Source of the DNA: Acaryochloris thomasi RCC1774
GTDB lineage: Bacteria; Cyanobacteriota; Cyanobacteriia; Thermosynechococcales; Thermosynechococcaceae
DNA: 32,000 nucleotides
Assembly (NCBI RefSeq): GCF_003231495.1
Contig: NZ_PQWO01000025.1
Location: 1 to 32,000, forward strand
Direction of reading: 5' to 3'
In this document: piece by piece, positions 699 through 14,042 of the stretch
How the letters are laid out: each line of letters begins with the position of its first letter
How positions within the stretch are numbered: the stretch's first letter is position 1
Program-made: the position numbers and the translations under genes
The notes under the pieces: model-generated
What the model was told of the DNA's origin: nothing
What the model saw: only the letters and a program-made list of their open reading frames with translations
Database searches by the model: none

Positions 699-701
699 GC
701 C

Positions 702-733
702 CTCACGGATTCCTCAGATTCCAGCTCTAAGTT
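702..733 (+). promoter_or_regulatory. Recurrent promoter-like module, instance A: 19-nt motif, 7-nt spacer, TAnnnT
   Basis: CTCACGGATTCCTCAGATT-ccagctc-TAAGTT, 74 nt upstream of the ATG at 807 and in the same orientation as that gene. Confidence 0.5.
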
Positions 734-806
734 GTAGGACATGGTCGTCCCTATCGATCTGTTATTTGGGAATGCAGAGTTATAGCACTGCTACAGGAGA
801 ATGTAG

Positions 807-1829
807 ATGAATTTAAACACAAACTATTTGGACCTGACGCTACGTTCTCCCTTAGTTGTAGGAGCCTGTGCGCCTCTGACGGAAAAAATTGAGCATCTAA
901 GACAGATAGAAGATGCTGGAGCTGCAGCAGTGGTGATGCATTCACTGTTTGAAGAACAATTACGTCAGGAGCGCTTTGAACTCCATCACCATCTCACCCA
1001 CTGTACCGAAAGCTTTGCTGAATCCCTTTCTTACTTCCCGGAACCCGATATTTTTCACGTCGGTGCAGAAGCTTATCTTGAGCACATTTGGCGGGCAAAG
1101 GAAATCGTCGATATCCCCATCATCGCCAGTCTCAACGGCTCAACCCTCGACAGTTGGACAAATTATGCTCAGCAAATTGAGGAGGCTGGGGCTGATGCCC
1201 TAGAGCTAAATATTTACGCGATTCCCACTGATATCGCGACTCCAGGAACGGCTGTTGAGCAAACCTATATAGATATCGTTCGCGCCGTCACGACAACCGT
1301 TAATATCCCCGTTGCCGTTAAACTGAGTCCTTTCTTTAGCAATTTGGCTTATATGGCTCGGCGCTTAACAGATGCCGGTGCCAATGGGCTGGTTTTGTTT
1401 AATCGTTTCTACCAGCCTGACATTGATCTTGAAACCCTAGAAGTCACGCCCAATGTCTTACTCAGTACCCCCCAAGATTTGCGGCTGCCCATGCGGTGGA
1501 TCGCAATTCTGTATGGAGCAGTGCCGATGGATTTAGCTGCAAGCAGCGGCATCCACACTGCAGCGGATGTATTGAAAATGCTGATGGTGGGAGCCAATGC
1601 CACCCTGCTGGTCAGTGTATTGCTGCGTCACGGAATTGATCACATTCGTACCCTAGAGCGAGATCTTCATCAGTGGTTAGAGGAGCACGATTATGACTCA
1701 GTACAGCAGCTCCAGGGCAACATGAGCCAGGTAAATTGTCCAGACCCCAGCGCCTATGAGCGGGTTCAGTACATGCAGGCTATCCAAACCTATCGCCCTT
1801 CATCAGAACCCTTTGTAAGTGTGAGTTAG
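807..1829 (+). CDS. Dihydroorotate dehydrogenase-like protein (class-1 PyrD/TIM-barrel flavoprotein family)
   Basis: 340-aa ORF whose layout resembles PyrD-like proteins (N-terminal LRSPLVVGA, IIASLNG, AGADALELNIY, PVAVKLSP, LVLFNR). Overlapping ORFs 751-945(-), 949-1203(+) and 1409-1603(-) are treated as shadow ORFs. Confidence 0.75.
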   Translation: MNLNTNYLDLTLRSPLVVGACAPLTEKIEHLRQIEDAGAAAVVMHSLFEEQLRQERFELHHHLTHCTESFAESLSYFPEPDIFHVGAEAYLEHIWRAKEIVDIPIIASLNGSTLDSWTNYAQQIEEAGADALELNIYAIPTDIATPGTAVEQTYIDIVRAVTTTVNIPVAVKLSPFFSNLAYMARRLTDAGANGLVLFNRFYQPDIDLETLEVTPNVLLSTPQDLRLPMRWIAILYGAVPMDLAASSGIHTAADVLKMLMVGANATLLVSVLLRHGIDHIRTLERDLHQWLEEHDYDSVQQLQGNMSQVNCPDPSAYERVQYMQAIQTYRPSSEPFVSVS

Positions 1830-1871
1830 TTCTGGGAATAACTATCCATCATTACTGATTACAAAAATCCT

Positions 1872-3026
1872 ATGACCCCACCGAAACGCATTGGAATACT
1901 CACCAGCGGCGGCGACTGTCCGGGACTGAACGCGATTATTCGGGCTGTGATCAAATGCGCGACGAACAACGGTTGGGAGGTCTTTGGTATTCCCTACGGC
2001 ACCAAGGGCTTTATTGACTTAGAAACCGGACAATGTCAGCCAGAAGACCTGCAGCTTAGAGAACATGGGTACGATCTGCCTAGCTTATTAGGAGGATTGG
2101 ATATTCTTCAGTTCCTCAGCGGTAGTGTTTTAGGGGCATTGAATAAAGGCGATCCTAGCGATCCAGACATTGCCCGAGAAATCTTGCAGGGCTATCGGCA
2201 TCTGAATCTTGATGCCTTAATTGCCATTGGCGGAGATGGCAGTCTCGACATCATTGATACCCTCGCTCAGCAGGGAAACTGGCAATGGATTGCGATTCCC
2301 AAAACCATCGATAATGATGTTCCGTTCACGGAGCAGTCCATCGGTTTTGATACCGCCGTCAATACAGTCACGAAGGCGCTTTATGATCTCACCTTTACGG
2401 CTGCCAGCCACGATCGCATCATGGCGGTCCAAGTCATGGGCCGCGATGCTGGACATTTAGCGTTTCAGTCTGGCATTGCCGGGGGCGCGGATGTGATTCT
2501 GATTCCAGAGCTAACGCCTTGCTTAAGCGAAAGGTTGGTGGATCAAATCTGTCACCAGATTTCTCGTCTGCGTCAGGGGGGCCGCCGATTTGCCCTTGTG
2601 GTGATTGCTGAAGGCGTTCGTAGACCAGACGGGAAAAAAGATTCACATATTAGCGATTATTTAGCACAGCAAATCCAGAGCCGGAGCCAAAGGTTGTGTG
2701 ACTCTGGAGCGCCGCAGTTTTGTACGCTACAAGAAGTCGATACTAGGGCTACGGTATTAGGACATATCCAGCGCAGTGGCACTCCTTCTGCCTTTGATCG
2801 GTTGCTAGCGGCTCGATTTGGTCGTGAGGCGATTAACCTGATTGCGATGGATAAGTACAACCAACTCGTGGTTTTGGAAAATGGCGAAGTGACCAGTAAA
2901 CCGTTAGATCAGGTGGTGCCTCAAGTTAGACAAAGCCATACAGATGGACGCTGCCCAGATCCGGTTGACGCTCAGGGACTGATGGTTCAGACGGCGAGGG
3001 ATTTGGGGATTTATGTTGGGGATTGA
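1872..3026 (+). CDS. pfkA: ATP-dependent 6-phosphofructokinase
   Basis: [36 protein letters not shown] and MGRDAGHLA are canonical PFK motifs. Confidence 0.9.
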
Positions 3027-3032
3027 ATGCAA

Positions 3033-3070
3033 AAGTTATGAGTTTTGTATGTTGAGCTTTGAGTTTGGGA
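3033..3070 (+). repeat. TGAGTTT-rich dispersed repeat, copy R1
   Basis: aagttatgagttttgtatgttgagctttgagtttggga, directly after the pfkA stop. It resembles copies at 14917-14954 and 26985-27021. Confidence 0.5.
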
Positions 3071-3121
3071 GAGGCCAGAGATTGGGCGATAGATCGCCAG
3101 ATGTTCTGGGTTTGCTGAGTT

Positions 3122-4255
3122 ATGAAGTTTGTTGATGAGTATCGGGATGCTGAGACAGCTCAAGGGTATGCGCGGGAGATTACGGGTCTAGTCACGCGAC
3201 CCTGGACGATCATGGAAATTTGTGGGGGGCAGACCCATGCAATTGTGAAGTATGGGATTGACCAGCTTCTCCCGGATGAAATTACGCTGATACATGGGCC
3301 GGGGTGTCCGGTATGTGTGACTCCAGTGGCGTTGATTGATGATGCGATCTCACTTTCTTTAACTCCCAATACCATTCTCTGTTCCTTTGGCGATATGCTG
3401 CGCGTGCCGGGAAGTGACTGCGATCTCTTATCAGCAAAGGCTCAGGGTGGCTCGGTACGAATGGTTTACTCTCCGCTGGATGCCCTCAAGCTAGCTCAGA
3501 AAAACCCAGAACAGCAGGTGGTTTTCTTTGCGGTGGGCTTTGAAACCACGGCCCCGACAACCGCAATGGCTGTTTATCAAGCACATCAGCAGAAAGTGGA
3601 CAATTTTTCAGTGTTGGTGGCCCATGTTTTGGTCCCACCCGCGATGGCGGCGATTTTAGCTGCGCCGGACTGCAGAGTGCAGGGCTTCTTAGCGGCAGGG
3701 CATGTTTGTACAGTGATGGGATATGGGGAATATGATGAGATCGCAGCCCAATATCACACCCCAATTGTCGTCACAGGCTTTGAACCCGTCGATATTCTGC
3801 AGGGGATTTATCACTGTATACAACAGCTAGAAGCCGGGACAGCTACAGTTGAGAATCAGTATGCCCGAGCCGTTCAACCCCAAGGGAACCTGACTGCTCA
3901 GCGGCTAATGATGGAAGTCTTTGAGGGGTGCGATCGCAAGTGGCGCGGCATGGACAGCATGCCTAAAAGTGGACTCAAACTTCGCTCTGAGTATGCCTAT
4001 CTTGATGCCCACCATCATCTGTCGAGGGAAGTGGGTCAACCACTAAATTCCAGCTTGTCTGCCAGCGCATCTCGTCCAGAAACCGAGTGCATCAGTGGAC
4101 AGATTTTACAAGGAACCCAAAAGCCGCCCGACTGTCCGGCCTTTGGCACCCGTTGTATACCTGAACACCCCCTCGGTGCCCCAATGGTATCGTCGGAAGG
4201 CGCTTGTGCCGCCTATTATCGATATCGGCAGTCGATGCCCTATTACAAGGTTTAG
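3122..4255 (+). CDS. hypD: [NiFe]-hydrogenase maturation protein HypD
   Basis: MKFVDEYRD start, [30 protein letters not shown], and the C-terminal [19 protein letters not shown] motif. Confidence 0.9.
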
Positions 4256-4298
4256 CACGCTCAAGATTCAAACTTAATTTTCTGAACAAAATGAACTA

Positions 4299-4396
4299 CC
4301 GTATAATTCCGAGATAATGACATTATCTCGGAATTATACGGATGGTGGCGGATAATATCCTTCCAGGCGGAGTTATCCGCCACCATCCGTATAATT
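4299..4396. repeat. 98-nt element of two overlapping perfect inverted repeats bounded by direct CCGTATAATT repeats
   Basis: IR1 has arms 4299-4319 and 4321-4341 (21 bp, perfect). IR2 core has arms 4342-4355 and 4373-4386 (14 bp, perfect). AATTATACGG (4332-4341) is complementary to CCGTATAATT at both 4299-4308 and 4387-4396. Confidence 0.7.
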
Positions 4397-4447
4397 AGTA
4401 TTATGTGGCACCGATAGACTGCAATAGCAAACCCCGAATCTCAGAAA

Positions 4448-4678
4448 TTGTGTTGGAAATTTGAAGACATCATCACTTTTAACAAGGTTTTAGATTTAGC
4501 TAGTAAGATGCGTATGGCTCAGCAAGATCCCTCTGAACAACAAAAGCTAGTAATAACACTTGAAGAGAATGCAATGGATTCTCTCGTTCACGGCATTGAG
4601 CATCACCTTTATGGCAAACGTAAGTCTGATTGGAAATATATAGTTCTGCATGTTTTCCATGCAGTTGAACTTTTTTAA
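4448..4678 (+). CDS. N-terminal fragment of a split HEPN-like protein (hypothetical)
   Basis: ORF ends ...VLHVFHAVELF* at TAA 4676-4678, directly after a T6 run (4671-4676). The translation continues in the -1 frame into the next ORF. The true start is uncertain (TTG 4448 or ATG 4508). Confidence 0.45.
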   Translation: MCWKFEDIITFNKVLDLASKMRMAQQDPSEQQKLVITLEENAMDSLVHGIEHHLYGKRKSDWKYIVLHVFHAVELF

Positions 4679-4767
4679 AGGCAAGACTTGCAAAGCATGA
4701 TGAAAAACTTATTTATACAAATCGCAAAAATGGACATACAGTTAGTTGCGTTGAAGCAATCGGGCGA

Positions 4768-5436
4768 TTGGTAAATGAAGTGAATATTCCGCTGGATAGT
4801 TATGCGGAATGTAAATTCAATAGCAAAAAAGCTAAATATCAATTTACCGGAGAGTTGGAAGAGTTACGGCAAGCAAGAAATGACATTGAGCATAAGGAAG
4901 CTTCTCTTAATAAAGATGCAGTTAATAAATTCCTGGGTGTCTCATTCCGATTCTTAGATGATTTTGTGAGTCGAGAGCTAGGACTAAGTTTGTCTGAGAA
5001 GTTAGAAGAACTTGATGAACTTCGATGGGAAGAGATGATTGAAGCAGGTATAGAAGAAATACCTGAGCAAGACAGCTACCAAACGCTCTCTCTTGCTTTC
5101 CTCTTGTACATTAAACATATGTCAGATCGGGGTATACCACTTCATCCTAAGGAAAGAGTTGATCATTCATTTTTTACTTGCGAAGTATGTGGTGAAGAAG
5201 CAGTTGTTCTACCCGATCCAAGGTCCTACTCTACGATCACTTACTGCTACAATTGTCGCGCTAAATATGAAGGTCATGCGTGTGCAAGATGTGAGCAGAT
5301 TTACATAGAATATTTAGGTGAATGGGAAAAAGGCGACATCCCACCTGAGCATCCTGATTTGAAAAGTCTTTTGAACTCTGGAGAAGATGACATGTCTTTT
5401 TGTCAAATGTGTCAAGGTTGGATTGCAGATCAGTAA
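4768..5436 (+). CDS. C-terminal fragment of the split HEPN-like protein: RNDIEH (Rx4H) helix plus four CxxC pairs
   Basis: This frame is already open from 4669 (TFLKARLAKHDEKLIYTNRKNGHTVSCVEAIGRL...). Contains LRQARNDIEHK, then CEVC...CYNC and CARC...CQMC. The region is AT-rich and has no GCGATCGC. Confidence 0.55.
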   Translation: MVNEVNIPLDSYAECKFNSKKAKYQFTGELEELRQARNDIEHKEASLNKDAVNKFLGVSFRFLDDFVSRELGLSLSEKLEELDELRWEEMIEAGIEEIPEQDSYQTLSLAFLLYIKHMSDRGIPLHPKERVDHSFFTCEVCGEEAVVLPDPRSYSTITYCYNCRAKYEGHACARCEQIYIEYLGEWEKGDIPPEHPDLKSLLNSGEDDMSFCQMCQGWIADQ

Positions 5437-5654
5437 TAGTGAAAATGCCGCATAACAATTCGGGTGCAGCGGATTGATCGAAGCCGCTTGGGTTGGATGC
5501 AAAAAACTTGGCAACCGCTGACCCGAACCGGTTATCAGGCTTCGCATGAAGACTTTGTAATTGTCCTTCCGTGCGATCAGGGGCCAAAAGCAACCGTTGG
5601 GCTATCTCTGCTAAATTCCAATAGTATAAGACTAGACCTATATGGAGGTGTACT

Positions 5655-5948
5655 ATGACCCCACAACTTGAAGTCGCAGTCGCTGCCATCCAGTCACTCT
5701 CACCCACAGAGCGTCAGCAACTGCTGCAAATTCTTATCCAAAGCGACTTAAACTCAACTTCTCAAACTGATCTCAAAGCACTCAGCACCCAGTTTTGGCA
5801 TGGCACCTCACTCAAGCAATTACGCGCCACCCAAACTCCCACGACCATTCATAACCTCAAAGATCTTGCTGCTGACTTTTGGCCCGCAGAAGACTCGATT
5901 GAGGATTTCCTTACCTTTCTGCGAGAGCAGCGCCAAGCAGTGATCTAG
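5655..5948 (+). CDS. Putative antitoxin partner of the downstream PIN toxin
   Basis: 97-aa ORF ending 10 nt before the PIN gene. GGAGG lies about 6 nt upstream of the ATG. Assigned by position and size only; no recognisable DNA-binding motif. Confidence 0.55.
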   Translation: MTPQLEVAVAAIQSLSPTERQQLLQILIQSDLNSTSQTDLKALSTQFWHGTSLKQLRATQTPTTIHNLKDLAADFWPAEDSIEDFLTFLREQRQAVI

Positions 5949-5958
5949 CCGAAATCCC

Positions 5959-6360
5959 ATGAGCCTTGCCCTAATTGACACGGACATCACCTCCTTCATC
6001 TTCAAAGGTAGCGACTATGCCGATCCTTACCTGCCACTTCTGAGCGATCAGGAATTAGCACTTTCTTTCATGACCATCGCTGAACTGTTTCAGTGGGCGA
6101 TCCTGCGTCAGTGGGGCAAGCGTCGCTTTTCGCAGCTAGAGCAATACCTATCGAATTACCTCATCATTCCGGTTGATCAACCGCTTTGTCGGGAATGGGC
6201 GCAGGTGCGGAGCGATCGCCAGAGTGCAGGACGACCGATTTCCCCTCAGGATGCTTGGATTGCCGCCACAGCTTTACGCCACGACTTACCGCTAGTCACT
6301 CACAACATCAAAGATTTTGCAGGAATTTCCAATCTACAGCTCATGATGCCTCCACTCTAA
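5959..6360 (+). CDS. vapC: PIN-domain ribonuclease, VapC-family toxin
   Basis: N-terminal LIDTDI, an acidic residue in TIAELF, PISPQDAWIAATAL and LVTHNIKDF match the PIN/VapC pattern. Confidence 0.85.
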   Translation: MSLALIDTDITSFIFKGSDYADPYLPLLSDQELALSFMTIAELFQWAILRQWGKRRFSQLEQYLSNYLIIPVDQPLCREWAQVRSDRQSAGRPISPQDAWIAATALRHDLPLVTHNIKDFAGISNLQLMMPPL

Positions 6361-6385
6361 CGCCTTGCTTGTTGTAGTCAGAACG

Positions 6386-6417
6386 CTCACAAAGTCCTCA
6401 AGTTTAGTGCCTATCTT
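6386..6417 (+). promoter_or_regulatory. Recurrent promoter-like module, instance B
   Basis: CTCACAAAGTCCTCAAGTT-tagtgcc-TATCTT, about 80 nt upstream of the small ORF at 6499. Confidence 0.5.
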
Positions 6418-6498
6418 CTAGGTGGGGCGGGCCATAACATCAGCCCTCACGCCTGATGCCCATAGCGAGAGCAGGCCCCACGCCAGGAGGTGTACATC

Positions 6499-6678
6499 AT
6501 GATCAACACAAAACCGAAACCTGCTCAACAACCATCCGTTCCTCAGCGGAAAAAGCATTGTAAGCGCAAAGACTTACGAAGACAAAATTTGAAAATAAAT
6601 CCTCCGAAGTGGTCTGTTCATCTACAGCGTCCTACCCCGACTTCTGAGAAGTTAAGTGATTGGGCAGAAGCGTCCTAG
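6499..6678 (+). CDS. Small, very basic hypothetical protein (59 aa)
   Basis: AGGAGG (6485-6490) lies 8 nt before ATG 6499. Product MINTKPKPAQQPSVPQRKKHCKRKDLRRQNLK... No homology recognised. Confidence 0.3.
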   Translation: MINTKPKPAQQPSVPQRKKHCKRKDLRRQNLKINPPKWSVHLQRPTPTSEKLSDWAEAS

Positions 6679-6712
6679 AATAACGGCCCCCCTAGACAGG
6701 AGAGAACGAAGG

Positions 6713-7165
6713 ATGAGATCACAACCCCACTCCGGCTTGAATTTCCAAGGCAAAATTATTGCTCTATGGACGACGTTTTTGTTGGGGATGCTCTTTCATA
6801 CCCAGTTGGCTCTAATGCCGCTATTTCATGGTATTGATGTCACCCAGTCCCATACCCATGAATATTTAGAATTGTCCTCTATCCTGTGGTTAATGCTGGG
6901 GATCTTTGCCCTGCCCATGCTGGCTATTGTGGCGATAGCCTTTACCGCGTCGAGACGATTTCGACAGCTCCACTTCGGCCTCACTGTGTTTTTTACTGTG
7001 AGCAATCTCCTGCATTTTGTGTCAGACGTATTGGTCTCTGTACCCAGCTATCAACTCTTTTTGATGGCCCTCTTATTTGCGATCGGACTGCTTCTTAATT
7101 TAGTCTCCTATCAATGGATCAGAGAGGGAAACCGTGATCGCCAACTCTTCAAGGCAGTCTTGTGA
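6713..7165 (+). CDS. Hypothetical integral membrane protein (about 4 TM segments)
   Basis: Four hydrophobic stretches in the translation. ATG 6713 is preferred over the 6656 start because the upstream part is highly charged and overlaps the small ORF. Confidence 0.6.
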   Translation: MRSQPHSGLNFQGKIIALWTTFLLGMLFHTQLALMPLFHGIDVTQSHTHEYLELSSILWLMLGIFALPMLAIVAIAFTASRRFRQLHFGLTVFFTVSNLLHFVSDVLVSVPSYQLFLMALLFAIGLLLNLVSYQWIREGNRDRQLFKAVL

Positions 7166-7191
7166 AGTTGAGAGGATGATGTCATTTCTCT

Positions 7192-8706
7192 ATGACTAAT
7201 TCTTCGACTGACATCATTTTTATTGGAGCAGGCATCGCTGGACTCGCTGCGGGCTGCTATGCCCAAATGAATGGCTATCGCACGGAGATCTTTGAGCTAC
7301 ATAACCAGCCGGGAGGACTATGCACCGCCTGGGAACGCAACGGATATACCTTCGACGGCTGCATTCACTACTTGTTTGGCTCGGCTCCAGGACAGCCCTT
7401 TCACAACCTGTGGCAAGAGCTAGGCACTATTCAGGACCGATCATTTGTACACCATGATGAACTCATCCGTCTGACGGGGCCAGAGGGAAAGACGCTGATT
7501 GTTTATAGCGATCCTGATCGGCTGCGAGAGCACCTGATCGCGCTGTCACCCTGCGATCGCGAACTAATCCACGCCTTCTGCAACGATATTCTTGCCTTCA
7601 GACACTTTGATCTATCCTTGCTGCAGCAACAGCCCAAAGCGTTAATGGGGCCGATTGATTGGGCAAAACTGGGCCGAAAGACGCTGCCGTTTTTAAGTCC
7701 GATGATTCGGTGGGGCCGATACTCTGCTCAAGACTTTGGCAAGCGGTTCAAAGATCCATTTCTACGACAGGCTATTCCTCAGATGTTTTCTTGGCCCAGC
7801 ATTCCTCTCATTGTGGGGATGTCGCTGCTGGCTGCAATGCATAATAAAAATGCTGGATATCCCCTCGGTGGATCGCTGGTGTTTGCCCGTGCCATTGAGC
7901 AACGGTACCGAGCGCTGGGGGGAACGATTCACTACAGCGCTCAGGTGGAACGAATTTTAGTCAAGCGAGATCGCGCCATTGGCATCCGGCTATACAACAA
8001 TGATGAGTATTTCGCGCACCGCATCATTTCTGCCTGTGATGGACGGAACACCCTGTTTGATCTGTTAGACGGGCGATATACAACGCGCTGCACTAAGCGT
8101 TTTTATGATGGGCATCTCCCGATCCACTCTCAGTTGCAGGTGTCATTAGGAGTCAACCGTGATTGTTCAGATCATCCGCACTGGGTCACGCACCTACTCG
8201 ATCAGCCCATCACCATCGCAGGAGAGAAGCAGTATGAAATCAGCGTTAAGCACTATTGTTTCGATCCATCGCTAGCCCCTACGGGGAAATCTGTTATGAT
8301 CGTCATGATGAATACGCCTAATTCCTATTGGCAGCGCATTTATGGGCGCTCAGCCTATGCTGCTGAAGAGATCCAAGAATCGAGCATTCTCATTGATCAA
8401 CTGGAGCGCATTTATCCCGGTATCAAAGCAGATATTGAATGCGTTGATGTGGCAACGCCGCTCAGCTATGAGCGGTATACCGGCAACTGGCAAGGCTCAA
8501 GTTGCGGATGGCTGCTCACCAAGCGAACGATGCCGTTGATGATTGGTGGTCTACCCAAGACACTTCCAGGACTGGCTCACTTTTATCAAATTGGTCAGTG
8601 GGTTGAACCGGGGGGGAGTGTCCCCATTGTGGCGATGTCGGGGCGCAATATTATTCAGCAGATCTGCCATGAGGACCGCAGGATATTTGCAACAACAAGT
8701 CCCTGA
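7192..8706 (+). CDS. NAD(P)/FAD-dependent oxidoreductase, phytoene desaturase (CrtI) family
   Basis: N-terminal dinucleotide fold IIFIGAGIAGLAAGCYAQMNGYRTEIFELHNQPGG, and a 504-aa length typical of the CrtI-like amine-oxidase superfamily. Confidence 0.85.
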   Translation: MTNSSTDIIFIGAGIAGLAAGCYAQMNGYRTEIFELHNQPGGLCTAWERNGYTFDGCIHYLFGSAPGQPFHNLWQELGTIQDRSFVHHDELIRLTGPEGKTLIVYSDPDRLREHLIALSPCDRELIHAFCNDILAFRHFDLSLLQQQPKALMGPIDWAKLGRKTLPFLSPMIRWGRYSAQDFGKRFKDPFLRQAIPQMFSWPSIPLIVGMSLLAAMHNKNAGYPLGGSLVFARAIEQRYRALGGTIHYSAQVERILVKRDRAIGIRLYNNDEYFAHRIISACDGRNTLFDLLDGRYTTRCTKRFYDGHLPIHSQLQVSLGVNRDCSDHPHWVTHLLDQPITIAGEKQYEISVKHYCFDPSLAPTGKSVMIVMMNTPNSYWQRIYGRSAYAAEEIQESSILIDQLERIYPGIKADIECVDVATPLSYERYTGNWQGSSCGWLLTKRTMPLMIGGLPKTLPGLAHFYQIGQWVEPGGSVPIVAMSGRNIIQQICHEDRRIFATTSP

Positions 8707-8744
8707 TCTCTGCTCTAACCTGAATTGCTTAAGCTGCAATCCAT

Positions 8745-9761
8745 CTACTTTTTCATCACGACTCGATGCAACTCGGCCTCTTTCTGTTGAAAGAATAACC
8801 AGGCAATCGGGAAAAAAGTCATATACCGATTGAAGACTTCTAGACCGACCAAACCTATTGCCTTTTCTTGGTTGGCAGCTAAGCGGTCATACCATGCTTT
8901 AAGAGTTGGCTTGTAGTCATGAACTGAGTCGTGGGTAATCATAAAACCCGCACTCTCTGCAGCCTCAATATGACGGTGATGCATGACCAATAGAGAACCG
9001 GGGAAGAATAACTGCATCAATATTCCAGATACTGGGTAGGGTTCACGTTCAAAAGAGAAAAACTGATGAACGGCTAACCCCTTTGGCACAAGCGCATCAT
9101 AGATTTTTTGATAGACCGCTTTTAGCTCCTTGGGTTTGACATGCTCCAGTGATCCGATCGAGAGGATGCGATCGTAGGGGCCATCTTTGAACAGAGCCGT
9201 GACAAAATTGGTGAGGGATACATTCAAATCTAGTTTGTGTTGATCGTAAATGAGCTGTTCCTTTGATAGGGTAAATCCAGATAATTCACCACGATGCCCC
9301 GCATCTTGAATAAACCTCAGCATTGAACCCCAGCCACACCCAAGATCTAATAGCTTCTCATTACCGTTTAATTCCAAGAGAGAAAGCAGGTGTCGAGCTT
9401 TGTGTTCTTGCGCGGTTTCTAACGTATCCTGATTACTCTTAAATTCAGCACAAGTATAGAACTTGTATTGAGTATCAAGGAATAACGCATAGAACTCGTT
9501 CGATACATCGTAATGAGATTCAATACCGATTGCATGGTCTTGCTTCAGCATGGAGTCTAAATAGGCCTTCCGCTTTGACTCTGGGGGATAAGCTCTAGCA
9601 AAAAACTCAAGCCCAGCGGATCTAGGCTTGCTCCAGAAACTCCAGTTCTCTTCTGCGGGTAAGGGGGTTGGTGAATGAATCCTCTTGTTTGCGATCGCAT
9701 AAAGCAGACCGTAATTCATAAAATCAGAGGTAAAGTCGGATACTCTTTTTGGATAGTTCAT
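8745..9761 (-). CDS. Class I SAM-dependent methyltransferase, cyclopropane-fatty-acyl-phospholipid synthase family
   Basis: HYDVSNEFYALFLD, YTCAEF, LETAQEHKARHLL and LLDLGCGWGS are typical CFA-synthase-family blocks. Confidence 0.85.
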   Translation of the reverse strand: MNYPKRVSDFTSDFMNYGLLYAIANKRIHSPTPLPAEENWSFWSKPRSAGLEFFARAYPPESKRKAYLDSMLKQDHAIGIESHYDVSNEFYALFLDTQYKFYTCAEFKSNQDTLETAQEHKARHLLSLLELNGNEKLLDLGCGWGSMLRFIQDAGHRGELSGFTLSKEQLIYDQHKLDLNVSLTNFVTALFKDGPYDRILSIGSLEHVKPKELKAVYQKIYDALVPKGLAVHQFFSFEREPYPVSGILMQLFFPGSLLVMHHRHIEAAESAGFMITHDSVHDYKPTLKAWYDRLAANQEKAIGLVGLEVFNRYMTFFPIAWLFFQQKEAELHRVVMKK

Positions 9762-9853
9762 TCTGGCTACCTCTACTGATGAGTATGAATCTCATGATCG
9801 ACATCATCCTGAAACTCTGAACGCCTCTAGGCTCGTTCATTACGCACGAACCG

Positions 9854-10060
9854 CTAACTTACCGCTCCCTTGACGGACTTCTTCTCCTCCTGGTCAGCCT
9901 CCGGCAAGGTGAGATTGAAAACACCTTTGTCGTATTCGGCTTCAACATGATCAGGCTGAATGGGACTGGGCATCGAGATGACTCGCTCAAACTTGCCATC
10001 GTAGAACTCAGAGTGAGCTGTGCCTTCAGGCTCACTTTTTGATTCTGACTTCCGTTTCGA
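9854..10060 (-). pseudogene. Remnant of an hsp20 paralogue (last 68 codons only)
   Basis: Translation SKRKSESKSEPEGTAHSEFYDGKFERVISMPSPIQPDHVEAEYDKGVFNLTLPEADQEEKKSVKGAVS* aligns with the C-terminus of the hsp20 at 14266-14745. The N-terminal two thirds and a start codon are missing. Confidence 0.65.
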
Positions 10061-10091
10061 TCATAGAGAAAGAACTTGATGAACTTGTGAG
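10060..10091 (-). promoter_or_regulatory. Recurrent promoter-like module, instance C (minus strand, overlapping the ackA 3' end)
   Basis: The reverse complement reads CTCACAAGTTCATCAAGTT-ctttctc-TATGAT. It lies in the last codons and stop of ackA and points toward the hsp20 remnant and the methyltransferase gene. Confidence 0.45.
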
Positions 10092-11293
10092 GGATATGAA
10101 GTTAGGCAGCGCCAACAATCTTGGGCGATCGCCCAGTCTTCCTGGGTATGAATCACCAGCACGCGAACGCTAGATTCAGTAGTGGCAATATCCTGATCCA
10201 CTGGGTCGCTGTTGTTCTTAGCTGCGTCAATCTTCAATCCCAAAAACGCTAAAGCGTTACAGATTTCTGCGCGTACTCCTGCTGAATGTTCTCCAATTCC
10301 TGCAGTGAAGACAATGACATCGATACCGCCCAAGCTCATTAACATTGAACCCAGGCAGGATTGTAAGCGATGGAGATAGAGATCCCGTGCTAGTTTGGCC
10401 TGCTTGTTGCCCTGTGCGATCGCATCATCAATCTCGCGCATATCATGGGAGATCCCCGAAATGCCCTTGAGGCCAGATTCTTTATTGAGCATCTGATCAA
10501 GCTGATCGGCAGAATAGCCCTGGCGCATCAAGTGAATCAAAATGCCAGGATCAACCGCTCCCGACCGCGTACCCATCATCAATCCGTCTAACGGTGTATA
10601 TCCCATCGTGGTGTTGATGCTCCTACCACTCTTTACCGCCGTCAGAGAAGCCCCATTCCCTAGGTGACAAACGATCAATCGCTCCACCTCTCGCCCCAGG
10701 ATCTGAGCAGTCCGCTGAGTGCAGTACTGATGACTAATGCCGTGGAAGCCATAGCGACGAATGTCCTGCTCAATCCAGTTATAGGGGCCGGGATAGGTGG
10801 CGGCAATATCGGGGATGCGACTGTGAAAGGCGGTATCGAAAACAGCGATTTGAGGCACATTGCCAAGAAGCTCCTCTATGATTTCGATGCCTTCTAGGTT
10901 GGCCTCATTGTGGGTTGGCGCTAGGGGGATTAGGGATGCGATCTCATCCTTGACCTCATCCGTCACCACACTCGCTTGGTACTTCTGTCCTCCATGCACA
11001 ACCCGATGCCCCACAACATCAATCTCTTGCAGGTTTTGAATCACTTGAGTCCGTCCCTGCCAAAGTGTCATTAATAGATGCAGAAGAGCGTCAGCTCGAG
11101 AGACCGACAATAATTCCTCTTCTAGCTTCTCCCCCGCCGCAGTTCTGACAAGCAAGGCCGCATTATCTGGACGATGCCAATCCAGTTGAGCCTCCCAAAG
11201 TGGTGCTGGTGGAGCATCTGGGAACAACTCTTCAATCTTGTACAGGCAACACTTATGGCTACTGGACCCTGCATTGAGGACTAAAATCTTCAT
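10061..11293 (-). CDS. ackA: Acetate kinase
   Basis: MKILVLNAGSSSHK start, VGHRVVHGG, AFDTAFH, YGFHGISH and FTAGIGE are canonical AckA motifs. Confidence 0.92.
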   Translation of the reverse strand: MKILVLNAGSSSHKCCLYKIEELFPDAPPAPLWEAQLDWHRPDNAALLVRTAAGEKLEEELLSVSRADALLHLLMTLWQGRTQVIQNLQEIDVVGHRVVHGGQKYQASVVTDEVKDEIASLIPLAPTHNEANLEGIEIIEELLGNVPQIAVFDTAFHSRIPDIAATYPGPYNWIEQDIRRYGFHGISHQYCTQRTAQILGREVERLIVCHLGNGASLTAVKSGRSINTTMGYTPLDGLMMGTRSGAVDPGILIHLMRQGYSADQLDQMLNKESGLKGISGISHDMREIDDAIAQGNKQAKLARDLYLHRLQSCLGSMLMSLGGIDVIVFTAGIGEHSAGVRAEICNALAFLGLKIDAAKNNSDPVDQDIATTESSVRVLVIHTQEDWAIAQDCWRCLTSYPSQVHQVLSL

Positions 11294-11567
11294 TGCCGCT
11301 CATGCCCCTGTATCGTCTTCAGACTTAAATCGCGTGGCTCTAACTTAATCCTTTCCTCACCGGTCTCAGGACACCAAACCCATTCTTTTTTGGACTCTCC
11401 CCCTAGAAGTGGAGCCACTGCGTATTCCTGGCGGAACGCTTCGCGACGGGGCGGGTTCCCTGACTCCACAGGACATAGCCAGTAGCGTGGGGGCTGGGGG
11501 GGCCAGTGAAACGCTTCAGGCCACCTAGAACATCTTGGATCGACAGTAGAGGAAAGAGCTGAGCGCC

Positions 11568-14042
11568 TTATTCACAACCCTCAGAGTAAGGCCACTTCCA
11601 ATCTACAATCTCATCTTGGTCTTTACCATGCTCATGGGCATAGGCCAGACATTCGATAATCTTGTTGCGCATTCTTTCCTTGGCATGACCTGCCGCTGAA
11701 CCCAGCTTGGGCACCCGATCGATCACATCAATCACCAAATTAAAACGATCTACCTCATTCTTAATCGCCAGCTCCAGCGGCGTATTGATGTTGCCCTGTT
11801 CCTTGTAGCCGCGCACATGAATGCGCTCTTGGTTGGAGCGACGGTAGACAAGCTTGTGAATCAGCCAGGGATAGCCATGAAAGTTAAAGATAATCGGCTT
11901 GTCGGTTGTAAATAGAGAATCAAAGTCCCGATTCGATAACCCGTGGGGATGCTCCCCTTCCGACACCAGCTTGAATAGATCCACCACATTTACAAACCGC
12001 ACTTTGAGCCAAGGAAATTCATCTCGTAAAATCGCCGTTGCTGCTAGCGACTCCATCGTCGGAATATCGCCACAACAGGCCATCACCACATCCGGTTCAT
12101 CCGGCTCAGTACCGCAGTCATCATTGCTGGCCCAGTCCCAAATGCCGATTCCCTTCGTGCAGTGGGCAACTGCCTCATCCATCGATAGATACTGCAGGTG
12201 ATTCTGCTTGTCAGAGATGATCACATTGATGTAATCCACACTGCGGAAGCAATGATCTGCCACCGACAGCAAACAATTAGCATCCGGTGGGAAGTAGACC
12301 CGCACTACGTCTGGACTCTTGTTCGTTACCAAATCCACATAGCCCGGATCTTGGTGGCTAAAGCCATTATGGTCTTGTCGCCACACTAGCGAAGAGAGCA
12401 GAATATTTAACGAGGAAACTGACCGTCGCCAAGGGACATGATTCCGGCAGATATCTAACCATTTGGCATGTTGGTTAAACATCGAATCGACCACGTGAGC
12501 AAAGGCTTCGTAGGTGTGAAAGAGGCCGTGGCGTCCGGTGAGCAGGTAGGTTTCCAGCCAGCCCTGCAGCGTATGCTCGCTGAGCATCTCCATTACGCGG
12601 CCATCACGGGCGAGTTCGGTCCCGTCTTCATCTTCGGGATATATATCCGCCATCCAAACTTTCTTGGTGACTTGATAGACATCCTGGAGGCGATTCGAGG
12701 CGGTTTCATCCGGTCCCATCAACCGGAAGTTGTCAGGATTGTCCCGCATGATCTCCCGCATGAATAGACCCAGTGCCTTCGTATTCTCAAACTCCACGTT
12801 GCCGCGCTGGTCGCCGATATCGATGGCAAGATCATTGAAGTCGGGCAGCTTCAGCGCCTTCCGCAATAGGCCGCCATTGGCGTGGGGGTTGGACCCCATA
12901 CGACGATTTCCTTCCGGTGCCAGTGCCTTCAGCTCTGGGATCAGTGCCCCAGATTCATCAAATAGCTCTTCCGGCTTGTAGCCGCGCATCCATTCTTCGA
13001 GCTTAAGCAGGTGATCAGGGTTGTCGTGCATCCCACCCATCGGGACTTGATGCGATCTCCAAAAATCTTCGACCTTCTTTCCGTCTACTTCTTGTGGTCC
13101 CGTCCAGCCCTTCGGAGTCCGCAGCACAATCATCGGCCAACGAGGGCGCTCAATCTTGCCCGTGGTGCGGGCTTCTTGCTGCACTTCCCGAATCTTGAGA
13201 ATGCACTCCTCCATGACCGCCGCCATTTTATGATGCATCTCTGCCGGATTCTTGCCCTCAACAAAATAGGGCGTGTAGCCATAGCCCTTGAACAGACACT
13301 CCAGCTCTTCATGGGAGATCCGGGCCAGAATCGTGGGGTTCGCAATCTTGTAGCCGTTCAGATTCAGAACCGGGAGCACGGCACCATCACGAACCGGGTT
13401 GATGAACTTATTAGAGTGCCAAGAGGTCGCCAGCGGCCCTGTCTCTGATTCACCATCACCCACCACACAGGTCACAATCAAATCCGGGTTGTCTAAAACT
13501 GCACCGTAGGCGTGGGAAACGCTATAGCCCAGCTCTCCGCCCTCATGAATGGACCCTGGTGTTTCAGGCGTTACGTGACTCCCGATAAAGCCAGGGAAGG
13601 AGAACTGCTTGAAGAACCGCTGCATTCCTTCGGCGTCTTCGCTTTTGTCGGGATAGATTTCAGAATAGGTTCCTTCCAAATACACCGGCCCCAAAACACC
13701 GGGTGCTCCATGACCTGGACCAGCCATGAAGATCATGTCGAGGTCGTATTTTTTGATCAGCCGATTGCAGTGAATATAGGTAAAACTCAATGCGGGAGAG
13801 GCTCCCCAATGTCCCAGTAGTCGATGCTTCACCTGCTCAGCCTTTAGTGGCTCCTTGAGCAGGGGGTTTTCTCGTAAGTAAATCATCCCAACGGCGAGAT
13901 AGTTGCAGGCTCGCCAATAAGCATTAATCTGCTTCAACTCGCTTTCAGTTAAGGATTCTGACTGGGAATCTGTGGGTTGAATAGGTGTTTGAACCATGAG
14001 TCTCTCTATTGAAATTGCTGCAAGTTCGGCATTTGAGGGCAC
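11568..14042 (-). CDS. xfp: Phosphoketolase (xylulose-5-P/fructose-6-P phosphoketolase)
   Basis: 824 aa. [32 protein letters not shown] and [15 protein letters not shown] match the XFP family. All plus-strand ORFs between 11899 and 13820 are shadow ORFs. Confidence 0.93.

What the first reader, a model, noticed from the sequence alone, without database searches (positions are those of the whole stretch)
4262..6360. Frameshift-split HEPN-like (RNDIEH) + four-CxxC zinc-ribbon gene in an AT-rich, HIP1-free islet next to a VapBC-like pair
Frameshift: ORF 4448-4678 ends ...HAVELF-TAA immediately after a T6 run (4671-4676). The -1 frame is open from 4669 and reads (F)LKARLAKHDEKLIYTNRKNGHTVSCVEAIGRLVNEVN... 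into ORF 4768-5436. One extra T (T7) would give a single ORF of about 330 aa.

Domains in the merged protein:
- An all-helical N-terminal half ending in LRQARNDIEHK. This is an RNxxxH (Rx4-6H) signature at the position expected for the last helix of a HEPN RNase domain.
- A C-terminal part with four CxxC pairs (CEVC, CYNC, CARC, CQMC), consistent with two zinc ribbons.

Consequence of the break: it falls inside the HEPN-like domain, so the gene is either inactivated, a read error, or expressed by slippage. A P-site tRNA-Phe could re-pair on U_UUU_UAA, with a stop codon in the A site.

Context:
- 4262-5440 is visibly AT-rich and lacks GCGATCGC, unlike the flanks, which suggests foreign origin.
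- It is followed by an antitoxin-sized ORF and a PIN toxin.
- No MNT-type antitoxin is adjacent to the HEPN-like gene.
- A degenerate copy of the left-boundary CCGTATAATT (ccgcataacaattcgg, 5448-5463) lies just past the gene's stop. This match is weak.
Basis: partly seen in the sequence, partly recalled or inferred. Interest (0 to 1): 0.7.

Follow-up and report, generated by a model that had tools for sequence, protein, structure and literature searches.

The report
Frameshifted HEPN defence gene cassette
A 1.1-kb mobile integron-type gene cassette carrying a predicted RNA-cutting (HEPN) plus zinc-ribbon anti-phage-type gene sits alone between housekeeping genes of the cyanobacterium Acaryochloris thomasi, and the gene is broken because one T is missing from a run of seven; it is a decaying member of known kinds, not a new system.

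Summary
ORF 4514-4678 stops at TAA right after a T6 run (4671-4676), and the -1 frame continues to 5436. Adding one T gives a 307-aa protein that reads ...HAVELFLKARL..., a motif kept in all 79 aligned homologues. Every full-length orthologue checked is a single ORF of 299-353 aa. Three carry T7 at this site and the others checked read TTTTCTT or another synonymous variant.

The HEPN call holds. The protein has a four-helix core with Ex3K in helix 2, which is where the break falls. RNDIEH sits at the end of helix 3. There are profile hits to DUF3644, HEC-08 and PDC-S64, and four invariant CxxC pairs. This HEPN + zinc-finger architecture is already known, and HEC-08 is a tested single-gene phage defence.

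The new point is that the AT-rich islet is an integron-type gene cassette, 4401-5531, ending in a canonical attC site (5446-5537). A covariance model built without the window scores this site at 71.5 bits. The same model finds arrays of such sites beside unrelated TA, deaminase, PIN and TIR genes in other cyanobacteria, and it also finds the aadA1 attC of plasmid R100. In this window the cassette is solitary (a SALIN) with degenerate core sites.

The VapBC-like pair is not part of it. HIP1 absence is not significant. Programmed frameshifting is unsupported.

The parts
4401..5531 (+). Integron-type gene cassette, 1131 bp, GC 0.40: 113-nt leader, the frameshifted gene, and the attC site up to the G of the G|TT crossover point.
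   Evidence: DNA identity to a Leptolyngbyaceae MAG (93.8%) spans 4402-5530. Identity to a Spirulina MAG (89%) spans 4401-5458. The flanks are unrelated (alignments).
4401..4411 (+). Cassette left end TTATGTGGCAC, the R'-derived half-site. It is the reverse complement of the R'' box at 5446-5456 with one mismatch, and is preceded by A instead of the canonical G.
   Evidence: The left end and R'' co-vary across clades: TTATGCGGC/GCCGCATAA, TTAGCTGGC/GCCAGCTAA and TTAGGTTGC/GCAACCTAA. L064 has the canonical G|TTATGCGGCAC.
4514..4678 (+). N-terminal fragment of the HEPN-ZnR gene: 54 codons plus the premature TAA. It encodes helix 1 (ENAMDSLVHGIEHH) and helix 2 up to E-L-F.
   Evidence: Orthologues start at MAQQD.
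4671..4676 (+). T6 run, the frameshift site. One T is missing relative to the T7 of three intact orthologues. The break splits the Ex3K motif (E-L-F | L-K) of HEPN helix 2.
   Evidence: L002, L004 and L029 read CTTTTTTTAAAG; L001, L064, L065 and L038 read CTTTTCTTAAAG; the window reads CTTTTTTAAAG.
4675..5436 (+). Rest of the gene in the -1 frame (253 codons plus stop): the end of helix 2, the beta insert, helices 3 and 4, two linker helices and the zinc-binding C-terminal part. GenBank annotates only the last 218 aa (C1752_08668).
   Evidence: (P0018, 100% identity).
4876..4893 (+). RNDIEH, the Rx4H catalytic motif of HEPN at the end of helix 3. R and H are invariant; E is invariant in the 20-sequence alignment and nearly so in the 79-sequence one.
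5179..5412 (+). Four CxxC pairs: 5179-5190, 5245-5256, 5281-5292 and 5401-5412. They imply two Zn sites. The first two pairs follow beta strands, as in a zinc ribbon.
   Evidence: The first three pairs are invariant in 79 homologues and the fourth is at least 90% conserved.
5446..5537 (+). attC recombination site. R'' is TGCCGCATAAC (5446-5456), followed by the spacer AA. L'' is TTCGGGT[G]CAGCGG (5459-5472), with G5466 bulged. The variable loop is 5473-5514. L' is CCGCTGACCCGAA (5515-5527), followed by the spacer CCG. R' is GTTATCA (5531-5537), with the crossover between 5531 and 5532.
   Evidence: The CM built without the window scores it at 71.5 bits, E=6.6e-18. The RNA fold gives -40.3 kcal/mol, z=-3.5. 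Covariation across 23 sites is. The model also finds the aadA1 attC of R100.
4299..4396 (.). Two overlapping perfect hairpins (21-bp and 24-bp arms) just upstream of the cassette junction. They are unexplained: possibly a decayed site or landing site, possibly a hypD terminator. They are not established as part of the cassette.
   Evidence: (-60 kcal/mol, z=-9.8). The attC model scores them at only 11 and 9 bits. A degenerate counterpart lies at the same place in L001.
5655..6360 (+). Neighbouring 97-aa ORF (5655-5948) plus PIN/VapC toxin (5959-6360). It lies outside the cassette, has host-like GC and contains a HIP1 site (6212).
   Evidence: No homologue lies next to any orthologue. No attC follows it.

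Best explanation
Window 4401-5531 is a solitary integron-type gene cassette (a SALIN: a single attC site with no integron integrase nearby). It was acquired horizontally by Acaryochloris thomasi RCC1774 and lies between hypD and a resident PIN toxin pair.

Its cargo is a single-gene, HEC-08/PDC-S64-like candidate anti-phage protein. The N-terminal part is a DUF3644-type HEPN domain. Its Rx4H motif, together with the helix-2 Ex3K motif, would form a metal-independent RNase site. The C-terminal module has four CxxC pairs (two Zn sites) and is presumably the sensor or regulator.

By analogy with HEC-08, an intact protein would cut RNA on infection and abort or limit phage growth. This step is inferred, not shown.

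In this genome the gene is dead. One T has been lost from a T7 run, which truncates the protein inside helix 2 after 54 residues. No usable start codon exists before codon ~85 of the downstream frame. The cassette's core sites have also drifted: A|TT instead of G|TT on the left, and GTTATCA on the right. It therefore looks like an immobilised, decaying cassette.
For: Shown:
1. The frameshift exists, and restoring it with one T is exact. The invariant motif HAVELFLKARL is recreated. Three orthologues carry T7 and the others checked carry TTTTCTT or another synonymous variant.
2. The genome was sequenced by PCR-free Illumina MiSeq at 20x coverage (PMC6002478). This chemistry rarely miscalls a 6/7-nt homopolymer.
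3. HEPN features are present.
   - PADLOC hits are PDC-S64 2.9e-13, HEC-08 1e-6 and DUF3644 2.7e-5.
   - 39 of 79 relatives hit Pfam DUF3644.
   - The AF2 model (pLDDT 85, pTM 0.83) has H1, H2, an insert, H3 ending in RNDIEH, then H4. This matches the published HEPN definition (PMC3710099).
   - The only recurrent family among the top PDB fold hits is the HepT/SO_3166 HEPN toxins.
4. No partner gene is conserved across 13 or more loci.
5. Cassette evidence.
   - The homology breakpoints fall at 4401 and 5530/5531.
   - The attC model built without the window scores the site at 71.5 bits.
   - The 23 sites are 82% paired, with compensatory changes in 14 of 18 pairs, against a covariation score of 0.11 or less for slid controls.
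   - Further sites follow unrelated genes in same-strand arrays in L002, L004, L010, L036 and L064.
   - The left end and R'' co-vary.
   - The aadA1 attC of In2 was recovered at rank 2 in 50 kb.
6. No recombinase was found among the window ORFs scanned with Pfam, and there is no second attC site in the 32-kb window.

From the literature:
- HEC-08 defence is abolished by mutating the Rx4-6H histidine (bioRxiv 10.1101/2024.01.29.577857).
- SALINs and genomic cassette insertion at GWT sites are described in bioRxiv 10.1101/2022.09.11.507474.
Against: - No reads were available, so a consensus error at the T run cannot be excluded.
- Fold matches to solved HEPN structures are weak (Foldseek E 0.2-0.9, TM normalised to the target 0.5-0.58).
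- The window protein itself does not reach significance against Pfam DUF3644.
- RNase activity and defence have not been tested for this clade. PDC-S64 itself is an untested candidate.
- The attC model was built from homologous sites, and alignment A7 is fitted to it.
- The cross-hit on R100 is modest (17.1 bits, E 0.026) and was outranked by an AT-rich hairpin.
- IntegronFinder's independent attC model could not be run.
- No integron integrase was seen in any locus held.
- The window's left junction is A|TT, not G|TT.
- Lineage-specific N/S counts (9/4) do not distinguish a pseudogene from an intact copy, because L001 shows 14/6.
Confidence: 0.78

Rival explanations
1. The gene is intact in the organism (T7), and the T6 is an assembly or consensus error. 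The cassette would then carry a functional HEPN-ZnR gene.
For: There is exactly one lesion and it lies in a homopolymer. There are no other stops or indels across 920 nt. Mean coverage was only 20x. The N/S pattern is the same as in the intact L001 copy.
Against: PCR-free Illumina MiSeq data rarely give a wrong consensus at a 6-7 nt run (general knowledge of the platform). The cassette's core sites are also degenerate, which fits decay. Remnant copies exist in other genomes (L013, L014).
Confidence: 0.13
2. The T6-TAA site is a functional recoding site. Either tRNA-Phe slips -1 on U_UUU_UAA with a stop codon in the A site, or RNA polymerase slips on the T run. Either would produce a low, tolerable dose of a toxic RNase.
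For: A -1 slip would re-pair perfectly and would regenerate the exact conserved peptide ELFLKARL. Slippery runs followed by stop codons are known to give low-level frameshifting. This is established knowledge and was not tested here.
Against: No full-length orthologue checked has the split arrangement. They read straight through with T7, TTTTCTT or another synonymous variant, so the site is not conserved as a recoding signal. No stimulatory element was identified downstream of the site; this rests on reading the sequence only. A T6 run is short for transcriptional slippage.
Confidence: 0.04
3. The 3' structure is just a transcription terminator or mRNA-stabilising hairpin of this gene. The gene spread by ordinary homologous or illegitimate recombination, not as an integron cassette.
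For: It is a stable stem-loop just after a stop codon. No integrase was found nearby. The scan found no sigma-70-like promoter and no + strand terminator-like site here.
Against: - The same structured site follows unrelated genes in same-orientation arrays.
- It carries the canonical RYYYAAC and GTTRRRY boxes, a bulged G and unpaired spacers.
- Homology between genomes ends at the G|TT point.
- The cassette's 5' end is complementary to its own R'' box and co-varies with it. A terminator would not need this.
- The model finds a bona fide attC in R100.
- There is no T tract after the stem.
Confidence: 0.05

Closest known systems
HEC-08 (Hma-embedded candidate 08; Payne et al., bioRxiv 10.1101/2024.01.29.577857)
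   Same: [quoted passage not shown] Its PADLOC model hits the window protein (1e-6). In more distant family members the match runs across both the HEPN and Zn regions. HEC-08 has been shown experimentally to defend against phage, and that defence depends on the motif histidine.
   Different: For the window protein only the first ~70 residues align. Its best PADLOC model is PDC-S64, not HEC-08. HEC-08 was found embedded in Hma systems of Proteobacteria, whereas this clade is cyanobacterial and rides on attC cassettes. No function has been tested for it.
PDC-S64 (PADLOC single-gene phage defence candidate)
   Same: It is the best profile match. The hit (2.9e-13) covers residues 37-276 and so spans the frameshift. 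Proteobacterial relatives of ~250 aa with the same HEPN plus 4xCxxC layout score 1e-24 to 1e-28.
   Different: Scores are modest (45-48 bits on a 339-position model), so this is a sister clade rather than a core member. It has a longer H2-H3 insert and extra linker helices. PDC-S64 itself is untested.
EC042_2821 / DUF3644 family of the HEPN superfamily (Anantharaman et al. 2013, PMC3710099)
   Same: It has the HEPN core with a conserved Rx4-6H. It is fused to Zn-ribbon domains in some members and appears in defence contexts. 39 of 79 relatives hit PF12358.
   Different: The described members occur in R-M operons and are often fused to wHTH or REase domains. Here there is no R-M context and no such fusions.
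Integron gene cassettes: SALIN/CALIN elements and defence cassettes (BRiCs)
   Same: One ORF is followed by an attC site with R''/L''/L'/R' boxes, a bulged base and a G|TT crossover. It is solitary here and sits in arrays elsewhere, alongside TA cassettes. Defence cargo is known from mobile and chromosomal integrons.
   Different: The host phylum is Cyanobacteria. No integron integrase was seen next to any copy. The cassette has a 113-nt conserved leader, which could hold its own promoter. The core sites in the window are degenerate.
HepT-MntA (HEPN-MNT) toxin-antitoxin systems
   Same: They share the HEPN fold and the Rx4-6H RNase motif. They are the top structural neighbours (7ae8, 7bxo, 5yep, 8yuf).
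   Different: There is no MNT nucleotidyltransferase partner in any locus. The protein is more than twice as long and has a Zn module, so regulation must be intramolecular or by a trigger.

Membership tests
HEPN superfamily | [quoted passage not shown] | tested here: met
   The AF2 model (pLDDT 85) has H8-33, H38-62, a beta-rich insert at 63-112, H113-127 and H134-156. The definition is from PMC3710099.
HEPN superfamily | Rx4-6H at the end of helix 3, with a polar residue after R | tested here: met
   R-N-D-I-E-H ends helix 113-127. R and H are invariant in 79 sequences and N is at least 90% conserved in the 20-sequence alignment.
HEPN superfamily | Conserved acidic residue in helix 2, typically as Ex3[KR] | tested here: met
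   E52-L-F-L-K56 in HAVELFLKARL. E and K are invariant. This is the motif split by the frameshift.
HEPN superfamily | Significant fold match to a solved HEPN domain | tested here: inconclusive
   HepT/SO_3166 toxins are the only recurrent family at the top of the Foldseek PDB list. The scores are weak: E 0.2-0.9, probability 0.4-0.84, TM (target) 0.5-0.58.
HEPN superfamily | Metal-independent RNase activity | not testable with these tools
   Requires biochemistry.
DUF3644 / HEC-08 / PDC-S64 group (HEPN + Zn-finger single-gene defence candidates) | Profile match to the family models | tested here: met
   PADLOC gives PDC-S64 2.9e-13, HEC-08 1e-6 and DUF3644 2.7e-5 for the window protein. Pfam DUF3644 is hit by 39 of 79 relatives, but not by the window protein itself.
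DUF3644 / HEC-08 / PDC-S64 group (HEPN + Zn-finger single-gene defence candidates) | C-terminal Cys-rich zinc-binding module after the HEPN domain | tested here: met
   There are four CxxC pairs, three invariant and the fourth at least 90% conserved. HEC-08 and PDC-S64 profile alignments extend into this region in relatives.
DUF3644 / HEC-08 / PDC-S64 group (HEPN + Zn-finger single-gene defence candidates) | Acts alone, with no conserved partner gene | tested here: met
   No neighbour is shared among 13 cyanobacterial loci. The contexts are varied.
DUF3644 / HEC-08 / PDC-S64 group (HEPN + Zn-finger single-gene defence candidates) | Protects against phage | not testable with these tools
   Shown only for HEC-08.
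Integron gene cassette / attC site | Imperfect palindrome of 57-141 nt directly 3' of the ORF, with an R''(RYYYAAC)...R'(GTTRRRY) outer stem | tested here: met
   The window site has R'' GCATAAC and R' GTTATCA and spans 88-92 nt, starting 10 nt after the stop. Orthologues have exact consensus boxes: GCCTAAC, ACCTAAC and GTTAGAC. TAAC/GTTA pairs are kept in 16-19 of 23 sites.
Integron gene cassette / attC site | L box stem with extrahelical base(s), and unpaired spacers between the R and L boxes | tested here: met
   There is a 13-bp L stem with a single bulged G (5466), and spacers AA and CCG. The same bulge occurs in L002, L005 and L010. 11 of 12 L-box pairs show compensatory changes.
Integron gene cassette / attC site | The same type of site follows unrelated ORFs in same-orientation arrays | tested here: met
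   L002 has 3 sites, L004 has 2 plus a short one, L010 has 2, L036 has 4 on the + strand and 2 on the - strand, and L064 has 2. The cargo is a deaminase, DUF433/DUF5615, BrnTA, PIN and TIR.
Integron gene cassette / attC site | Cassette boundaries at G|TT, with the 5' end complementary to its own R'' box (as a circular intermediate requires) | tested here: met
   Homology ends at 5530/5531. The left end and R'' are complementary and co-vary in three clades. L064 is canonical on both sides. The window's left junction is A|TT, which is degenerate.
Integron gene cassette / attC site | Recognised by an independent attC model or by IntI | tested here: inconclusive
   My model, built from cyanobacterial sites only, finds the aadA1 attC of R100 at 17.1 bits, E 0.026, rank 2 of 100 kb searched. 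IntegronFinder's model and recombination assays were not available.
Complete integron | intI integrase and attI next to the cassette(s) | tested here: not met
   No recombinase was found among the window ORFs scanned. The only tyrosine recombinase beside a copy (L065) is Xer-like: TIGR02249 gives 32.8 bits against a cut-off of 265. The element is therefore a SALIN here and a CALIN elsewhere.
HEPN-MNT (HepT-MntA) toxin-antitoxin | Adjacent minimal nucleotidyltransferase antitoxin | tested here: not met
   None is present in the window or in any orthologous locus.
VapBC toxin-antitoxin (neighbouring pair) | PIN-domain toxin preceded by a small antitoxin gene | tested here: inconclusive
   PIN is met (Pfam 5.5e-14, above cut-off). 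NCBIfam VapC models score below their cut-offs. The 97-aa ORF has no family hit in Pfam or NCBIfam.
Programmed ribosomal frameshift | The split-frame arrangement and slippery site are conserved among orthologues | tested here: not met
   Every full-length orthologue checked is a single ORF.

The most novel reading that the evidence does not exclude
Cyanobacteria of several orders may share a pool of attC-flanked defence and toxin-antitoxin cassettes. These would move between orders and drop singly into core-genome sites without any resident integron integrase. Supporting observations are 94% DNA identity between an Acaryochloris and a Leptolyngbyaceae MAG, and arrays in Spirulina, Nodosilinea, Leptolyngbya and Coleofasciculaceae. 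The unusual perfect double hairpin at 4299-4396, which has a degenerate copy at the same place in L001, could be a previously undescribed landing or attI-like site for such cassettes.
Probability: 0.15. Interest if true: 0.6.

Novelty: new member of a known kind. Interest (0 to 1): 0.35.

Why it matters
The case shows that an 'AT-rich islet with a broken odd gene' in a cyanobacterial core region can be explained fully. It is a lone integron cassette that delivered a HEC-08-like HEPN RNase defence gene, and it is now decaying.

Practical value:
1. It assigns about 90 unannotated cyanobacterial 'hypothetical proteins' to the DUF3644 HEPN + zinc-finger defence-candidate group. That group contains more than 1,200 50%-identity clusters at E<=1e-10.
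2. It provides a cyanobacterial attC model that picks out cassette arrays carrying deaminase, TIR, PIN and TA cargo. This could be a source of new defence genes in a phylum where integrons are little studied.
3. It corrects the GenBank annotation, in which only the C-terminal 218 aa are called.

It does not reveal a new mechanism.

Tried and rejected
- Direct Pfam and NCBIfam scans of the merged protein gave nothing significant.
- Sequence searches against PDB gave nothing, with either the single sequence or the profile.
- Foldseek against viral structures gave nothing meaningful.
- Rfam returned only chance miRNA-like hits on the upstream hairpin.
- HIP1 depletion was rejected as evidence, because P(0) is about 0.5.
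- A functional link between the HEPN gene and the VapBC-like pair was rejected. No homologous neighbours occur in 13 loci, and the recurrent small TA pairs near orthologues turned out to be separate cassettes of the same arrays.
- IS200/IS605-type ends were considered and dropped. The two end structures are unrelated to each other.
- Terminal inverted repeats of a MITE were considered and dropped. The 'TIR' is the R'/R'' complementarity of an attC, and homology extends 75 nt beyond the right repeat.
- Lineage-specific N/S counts were tried as a test for relaxed selection. They were uninformative: 9/4 in the window against 14/6 in the intact L001.
- The tyrosine recombinase next to the L065 copy was tested as a possible IntI and rejected.
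- The attC model finds no site after vapC.


Full report
**1. The observation**

A frame-2 ORF ends ...H-A-V-E-L-F-TAA, with the stop at 4676-4678, immediately after six Ts at 4671-4676. Frame 1 is open from 4669 to the stop at 5434-5436. Adding one T joins the two frames.

RNDIEH lies at 4876-4893. The four CxxC pairs lie at 5179-5190, 5245-5256, 5281-5292 and 5401-5412.

The region is the lowest-GC 1.13-kb stretch of the 32-kb window, at 0.39-0.40 against a mean of 0.50 and sd of 0.03.

The lack of HIP1 carries no weight. There are 19 GCGATCGC sites in 32 kb, so only 0.7 are expected in the interval.

**2. Source and orthologues**

The C-terminal fragment is 100% identical to C1752_08668 of Acaryochloris thomasi RCC1774. 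The search returned 88 homologues.

Proteins up to 92% identical, from many cyanobacteria, are single ORFs of 299-353 aa, mostly 309-310 aa. They start at the position of the second ATG (4514), so the repaired product is 307 aa.

All 20 and all 79 aligned relatives read ...HAVELFLKARLAKHD... straight through the break, and this is one of the most conserved motifs of the family.

At the DNA level, three intact orthologues carry CTTTTTTTAAAG (T7). These are a Spirulina MAG, Nodosilinea LEGE 07088 and Synechocystis PCC 7509. Four close orthologues have CTTTTCTTAAAG, and the remaining loci checked carry other synonymous variants. The window has CTTTTTTAAAG.

The genome was sequenced with PCR-free Illumina MiSeq at 20x coverage (PMC6002478). 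That makes a homopolymer consensus error unlikely but not impossible.

Truncated remnants of the gene exist in Brasilonema and Limnothrix, so decay of this gene is not unusual.

**3. What the protein is**

Pfam and NCBIfam give nothing significant for the window protein itself. PADLOC models do hit it:
- PDC-S64, 2.9e-13, over residues 37-276, so the match spans the frameshift
- HEC-08, 1e-6
- DUF3644, 2.7e-5
- PDC-S19

In addition, 39 of 79 relatives hit Pfam DUF3644.

DUF3644 was classified as a HEPN family (EC042_2821) that is fused to Zn ribbons in some members (PMC3710099).

An AlphaFold model built from the 79-sequence alignment has pLDDT 85 and pTM 0.83. It shows helix 1, helix 2, a beta-rich insert, helix 3 ending in R-N-D-I-E-H, and helix 4. 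[quoted passage not shown]

The family's invariant E-L-F-L-K is that Ex3K motif, and the frameshift falls between its F and L.

Foldseek finds no significant PDB match. The only recurrent family at the top of the list is the HepT/SO_3166 HEPN toxins, with TM of 0.5-0.58 on the target. This is the same neighbour reported for HEC-08.

The first three CxxC pairs are invariant and the fourth is at least 90% conserved.

A profile search of 1.8 billion representatives finds 1,242 clusters at E<=1e-10, typically 245-280 aa long. Proteobacterial members have the same HEPN + 4xCxxC layout and score 1e-24 to 1e-28 on PDC-S64.

HEC-08 has the same architecture, and its defence is lost when the motif histidine is mutated. 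PDCs are untested candidates.

The window gene is therefore a cyanobacterial sister clade of a known kind of single-gene HEPN defence candidate. RNase activity and defence are inferred, not shown.

**4. Context: no partner**

None of the window's neighbours (HypD, the 97-aa ORF, PIN) has a homologue beside any of 13 cyanobacterial orthologues. Gene neighbourhoods differ from genome to genome.

The gene keeps a GC of 0.35-0.40 whatever the host GC, which ranges from 0.39 to 0.54.

**5. The islet is an integron-type gene cassette**

DNA identity to a Leptolyngbyaceae MAG (93.8%) runs from 4402 to 5530. Identity to a Spirulina MAG (89%) runs from 4401 to 5458. Everything outside these spans is unrelated.

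Ten bases after the stop codon lies a structured site with this layout:

| Element | Sequence | Coordinates |
|---|---|---|
| R'' | TGCCGCATAAC | 5446-5456 |
| spacer | AA | 5457-5458 |
| L'' | TTCGGGT[G]CAGCGG, one bulged G | 5459-5472 |
| variable loop | 42 nt | 5473-5514 |
| L' | CCGCTGACCCGAA | 5515-5527 |
| spacer | CCG | 5528-5530 |
| R' | GTTATCA | 5531-5537 |

The RNA fold gives -40.3 kcal/mol, z=-3.5.

Orthologues as distant as 53% amino-acid identity carry the same architecture with different stem sequences. For example, L010 has AGCTAAC-AA-CCCGGTTG[G]AGCGG...CCGTTCAACTGG-AAC-GTTAGTC. Several have exact integron consensus boxes, with RYYYAAC as GCCTAAC or ACCTAAC and GTTRRRY as GTTAGAC.

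The cassette's 5' end is the reverse complement of its own R'' box, and the two co-vary between clades (TTATGCGGC/GCCGCATAA; TTAGCTGGC/GCCAGCTAA; TTAGGTTGC/GCAACCTAA). That is what a unit that circularises at G|TT requires.

I built a covariance model from five orthologous sites, leaving the window out. It gave these results:
- It scores 5447-5539 at 71.5 bits (E=6.6e-18) and finds no other significant site in the window.
- In the fetched loci it finds further sites behind unrelated genes, in the same orientation and 0.6-1.7 kb apart:
  - L002: three sites
  - L004: two sites, plus a short one seen by eye
  - L010: two sites
  - L036: four sites on one strand and two on the other
  - L064: two sites
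- In L002 the preceding site ends exactly at the left junction of the HEPN cassette.

The neighbouring cassettes encode a cytidine-deaminase-like protein, DUF433/DUF5615 and BrnT/BrnA pairs, a PIN protein and a TIR protein.

Across the 23 sites, 82% of cells pair, against 67% in shuffles. Fourteen of 18 pairs show compensatory changes. The covariation score is 0.36, against 0.11 or less for slid controls. The caveat is that this alignment is fitted to the model.

As an outside check, the model recovers the aadA1 attC of In2 on plasmid R100 in the correct strand and position. It scores 17.1 bits, E 0.026, second of all hits in 50 kb.

No integrase was found among the window ORFs scanned with Pfam. 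The one tyrosine recombinase next to a copy (L065) is Xer-like, not IntI.

The element therefore matches what the literature calls a SALIN in this genome and CALINs elsewhere. Defence cargo in integron cassettes is already documented.

**6. State of the cassette in this genome**

Compared with the canonical L064 copy (G|TTATGCGGCAC ... G|TTAGAC), the window has A|TTATGTGGCAC and G|TTATCA. Together with the frameshift, this suggests an immobilised, decaying cassette.

After the break, the first start codon in the downstream frame is TTG at 4768. The product would therefore lack helices 1-2 and could not form the HEPN core.

Lineage-specific substitution counts are too small to show relaxed selection.

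**7. Rival explanations**

- Assembly error at the T run: about 0.13. This can only be settled with reads.
- Programmed -1 frameshift or transcriptional slippage: about 0.04. A slip would regenerate the exact conserved peptide, but no orthologue is split and no stimulatory element was seen on reading the sequence.
- A plain terminator instead of an attC: about 0.05. This is contradicted by the arrays, the consensus boxes, the breakpoints and the end complementarity.

**8. Loose ends**

The two perfect overlapping hairpins at 4299-4396 remain unexplained. They fold at -60 kcal/mol, z=-9.8, and lie four bases from the left junction.
- Their 3' arm, GTTATCCGCCACC, resembles the cassette's left end.
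- L001 has a degenerate version at the same place.
- The attC model does not score them significantly.

**9. Verdict**

The added finding is the cassette and attC identity. Both the protein architecture and the mobile-element type are known kinds, so this is a new member of a known kind, of modest interest.

Noticed in passing
window 4299-4396: There are two overlapping perfect hairpins, with 21-bp arms at 4299-4319/4321-4341 and 24-bp arms at 4332-4355/4373-4396. They share three copies of CCGTATAATT and fold at -60 kcal/mol (z=-9.8). Both have GATAAT...ATTATC cores. The 3' arm GTTATCCGCCACC resembles the cassette's left end. They could be a hypD terminator, a decayed recombination site or a small repeat element; this is not resolved.
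   Followed up: partly
L035 (Anabaena sp. CCY 9613) 701-12792: The orthologue lies inside the DNA element that interrupts the hydrogenase gene hupL. NiFeSe_Hases fragments sit at both ends and an XisC-type recombinase is at 1918-3408. Two AAA_16/AAA_35 ATPase genes lie alongside.
   Followed up: no
L002 55-2232; L004 1795-3596; L010 7960-9095; L036 6936-12739; L064 1236-2541: These are arrays of attC sites in cyanobacterial genomes and metagenome contigs. Their cassettes encode a cytidine/dCMP-deaminase-like 268-aa protein, DUF433+DUF5615, BrnT/BrnA, a PIN protein, a TIR protein and several proteins with no family. No integron integrase lies within the DNA held.
   Followed up: partly
L013 7007-7393 (Brasilonema), L014 7025-7201 (Limnothrix): These are remnant copies of the same gene. 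One covers residues 1-125 only. The other covers 1-59 and has an internal stop. Decay of the family therefore recurs.
   Followed up: partly
L004 1033-1168; proteins P0008, P0012, P0013, P0021: Variants of 348-353 aa carry an in-frame insertion of about 45 aa in the insert between HEPN helices 2 and 3. This corresponds to about 135 nt of extra DNA in L004. Its origin was not examined.
   Followed up: no
L065 3798-9410: An 88%-identical copy is truncated to 299 aa and lacks the attC site. It keeps the canonical left end G|TTATGCG. It sits between a Xer-like tyrosine recombinase and a serine recombinase / DDE transposase / AAA_22 ATPase module, which suggests capture by a different mobile element.
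   Followed up: partly
L017 6905-6971; L024 7819-7900: There are weak attC-model hits (about 22.6 bits, E about 0.006) next to the PDC-S64-like homologues of a Burkholderiales MAG and a Polyangia MAG. The wider family may also travel on cassettes outside cyanobacteria.
   Followed up: no
window 5261-5707 (- strand): A 148-aa antisense ORF spans the gene's 3' end, the attC site and the start of the 97-aa ORF. It is very likely spurious.
   Followed up: no
window 5655-5948: The 97-aa ORF upstream of the PIN toxin matches no Pfam or NCBIfam family. Calling it a VapB antitoxin rests only on its size and position, 10 nt before the toxin gene.
   Followed up: partly
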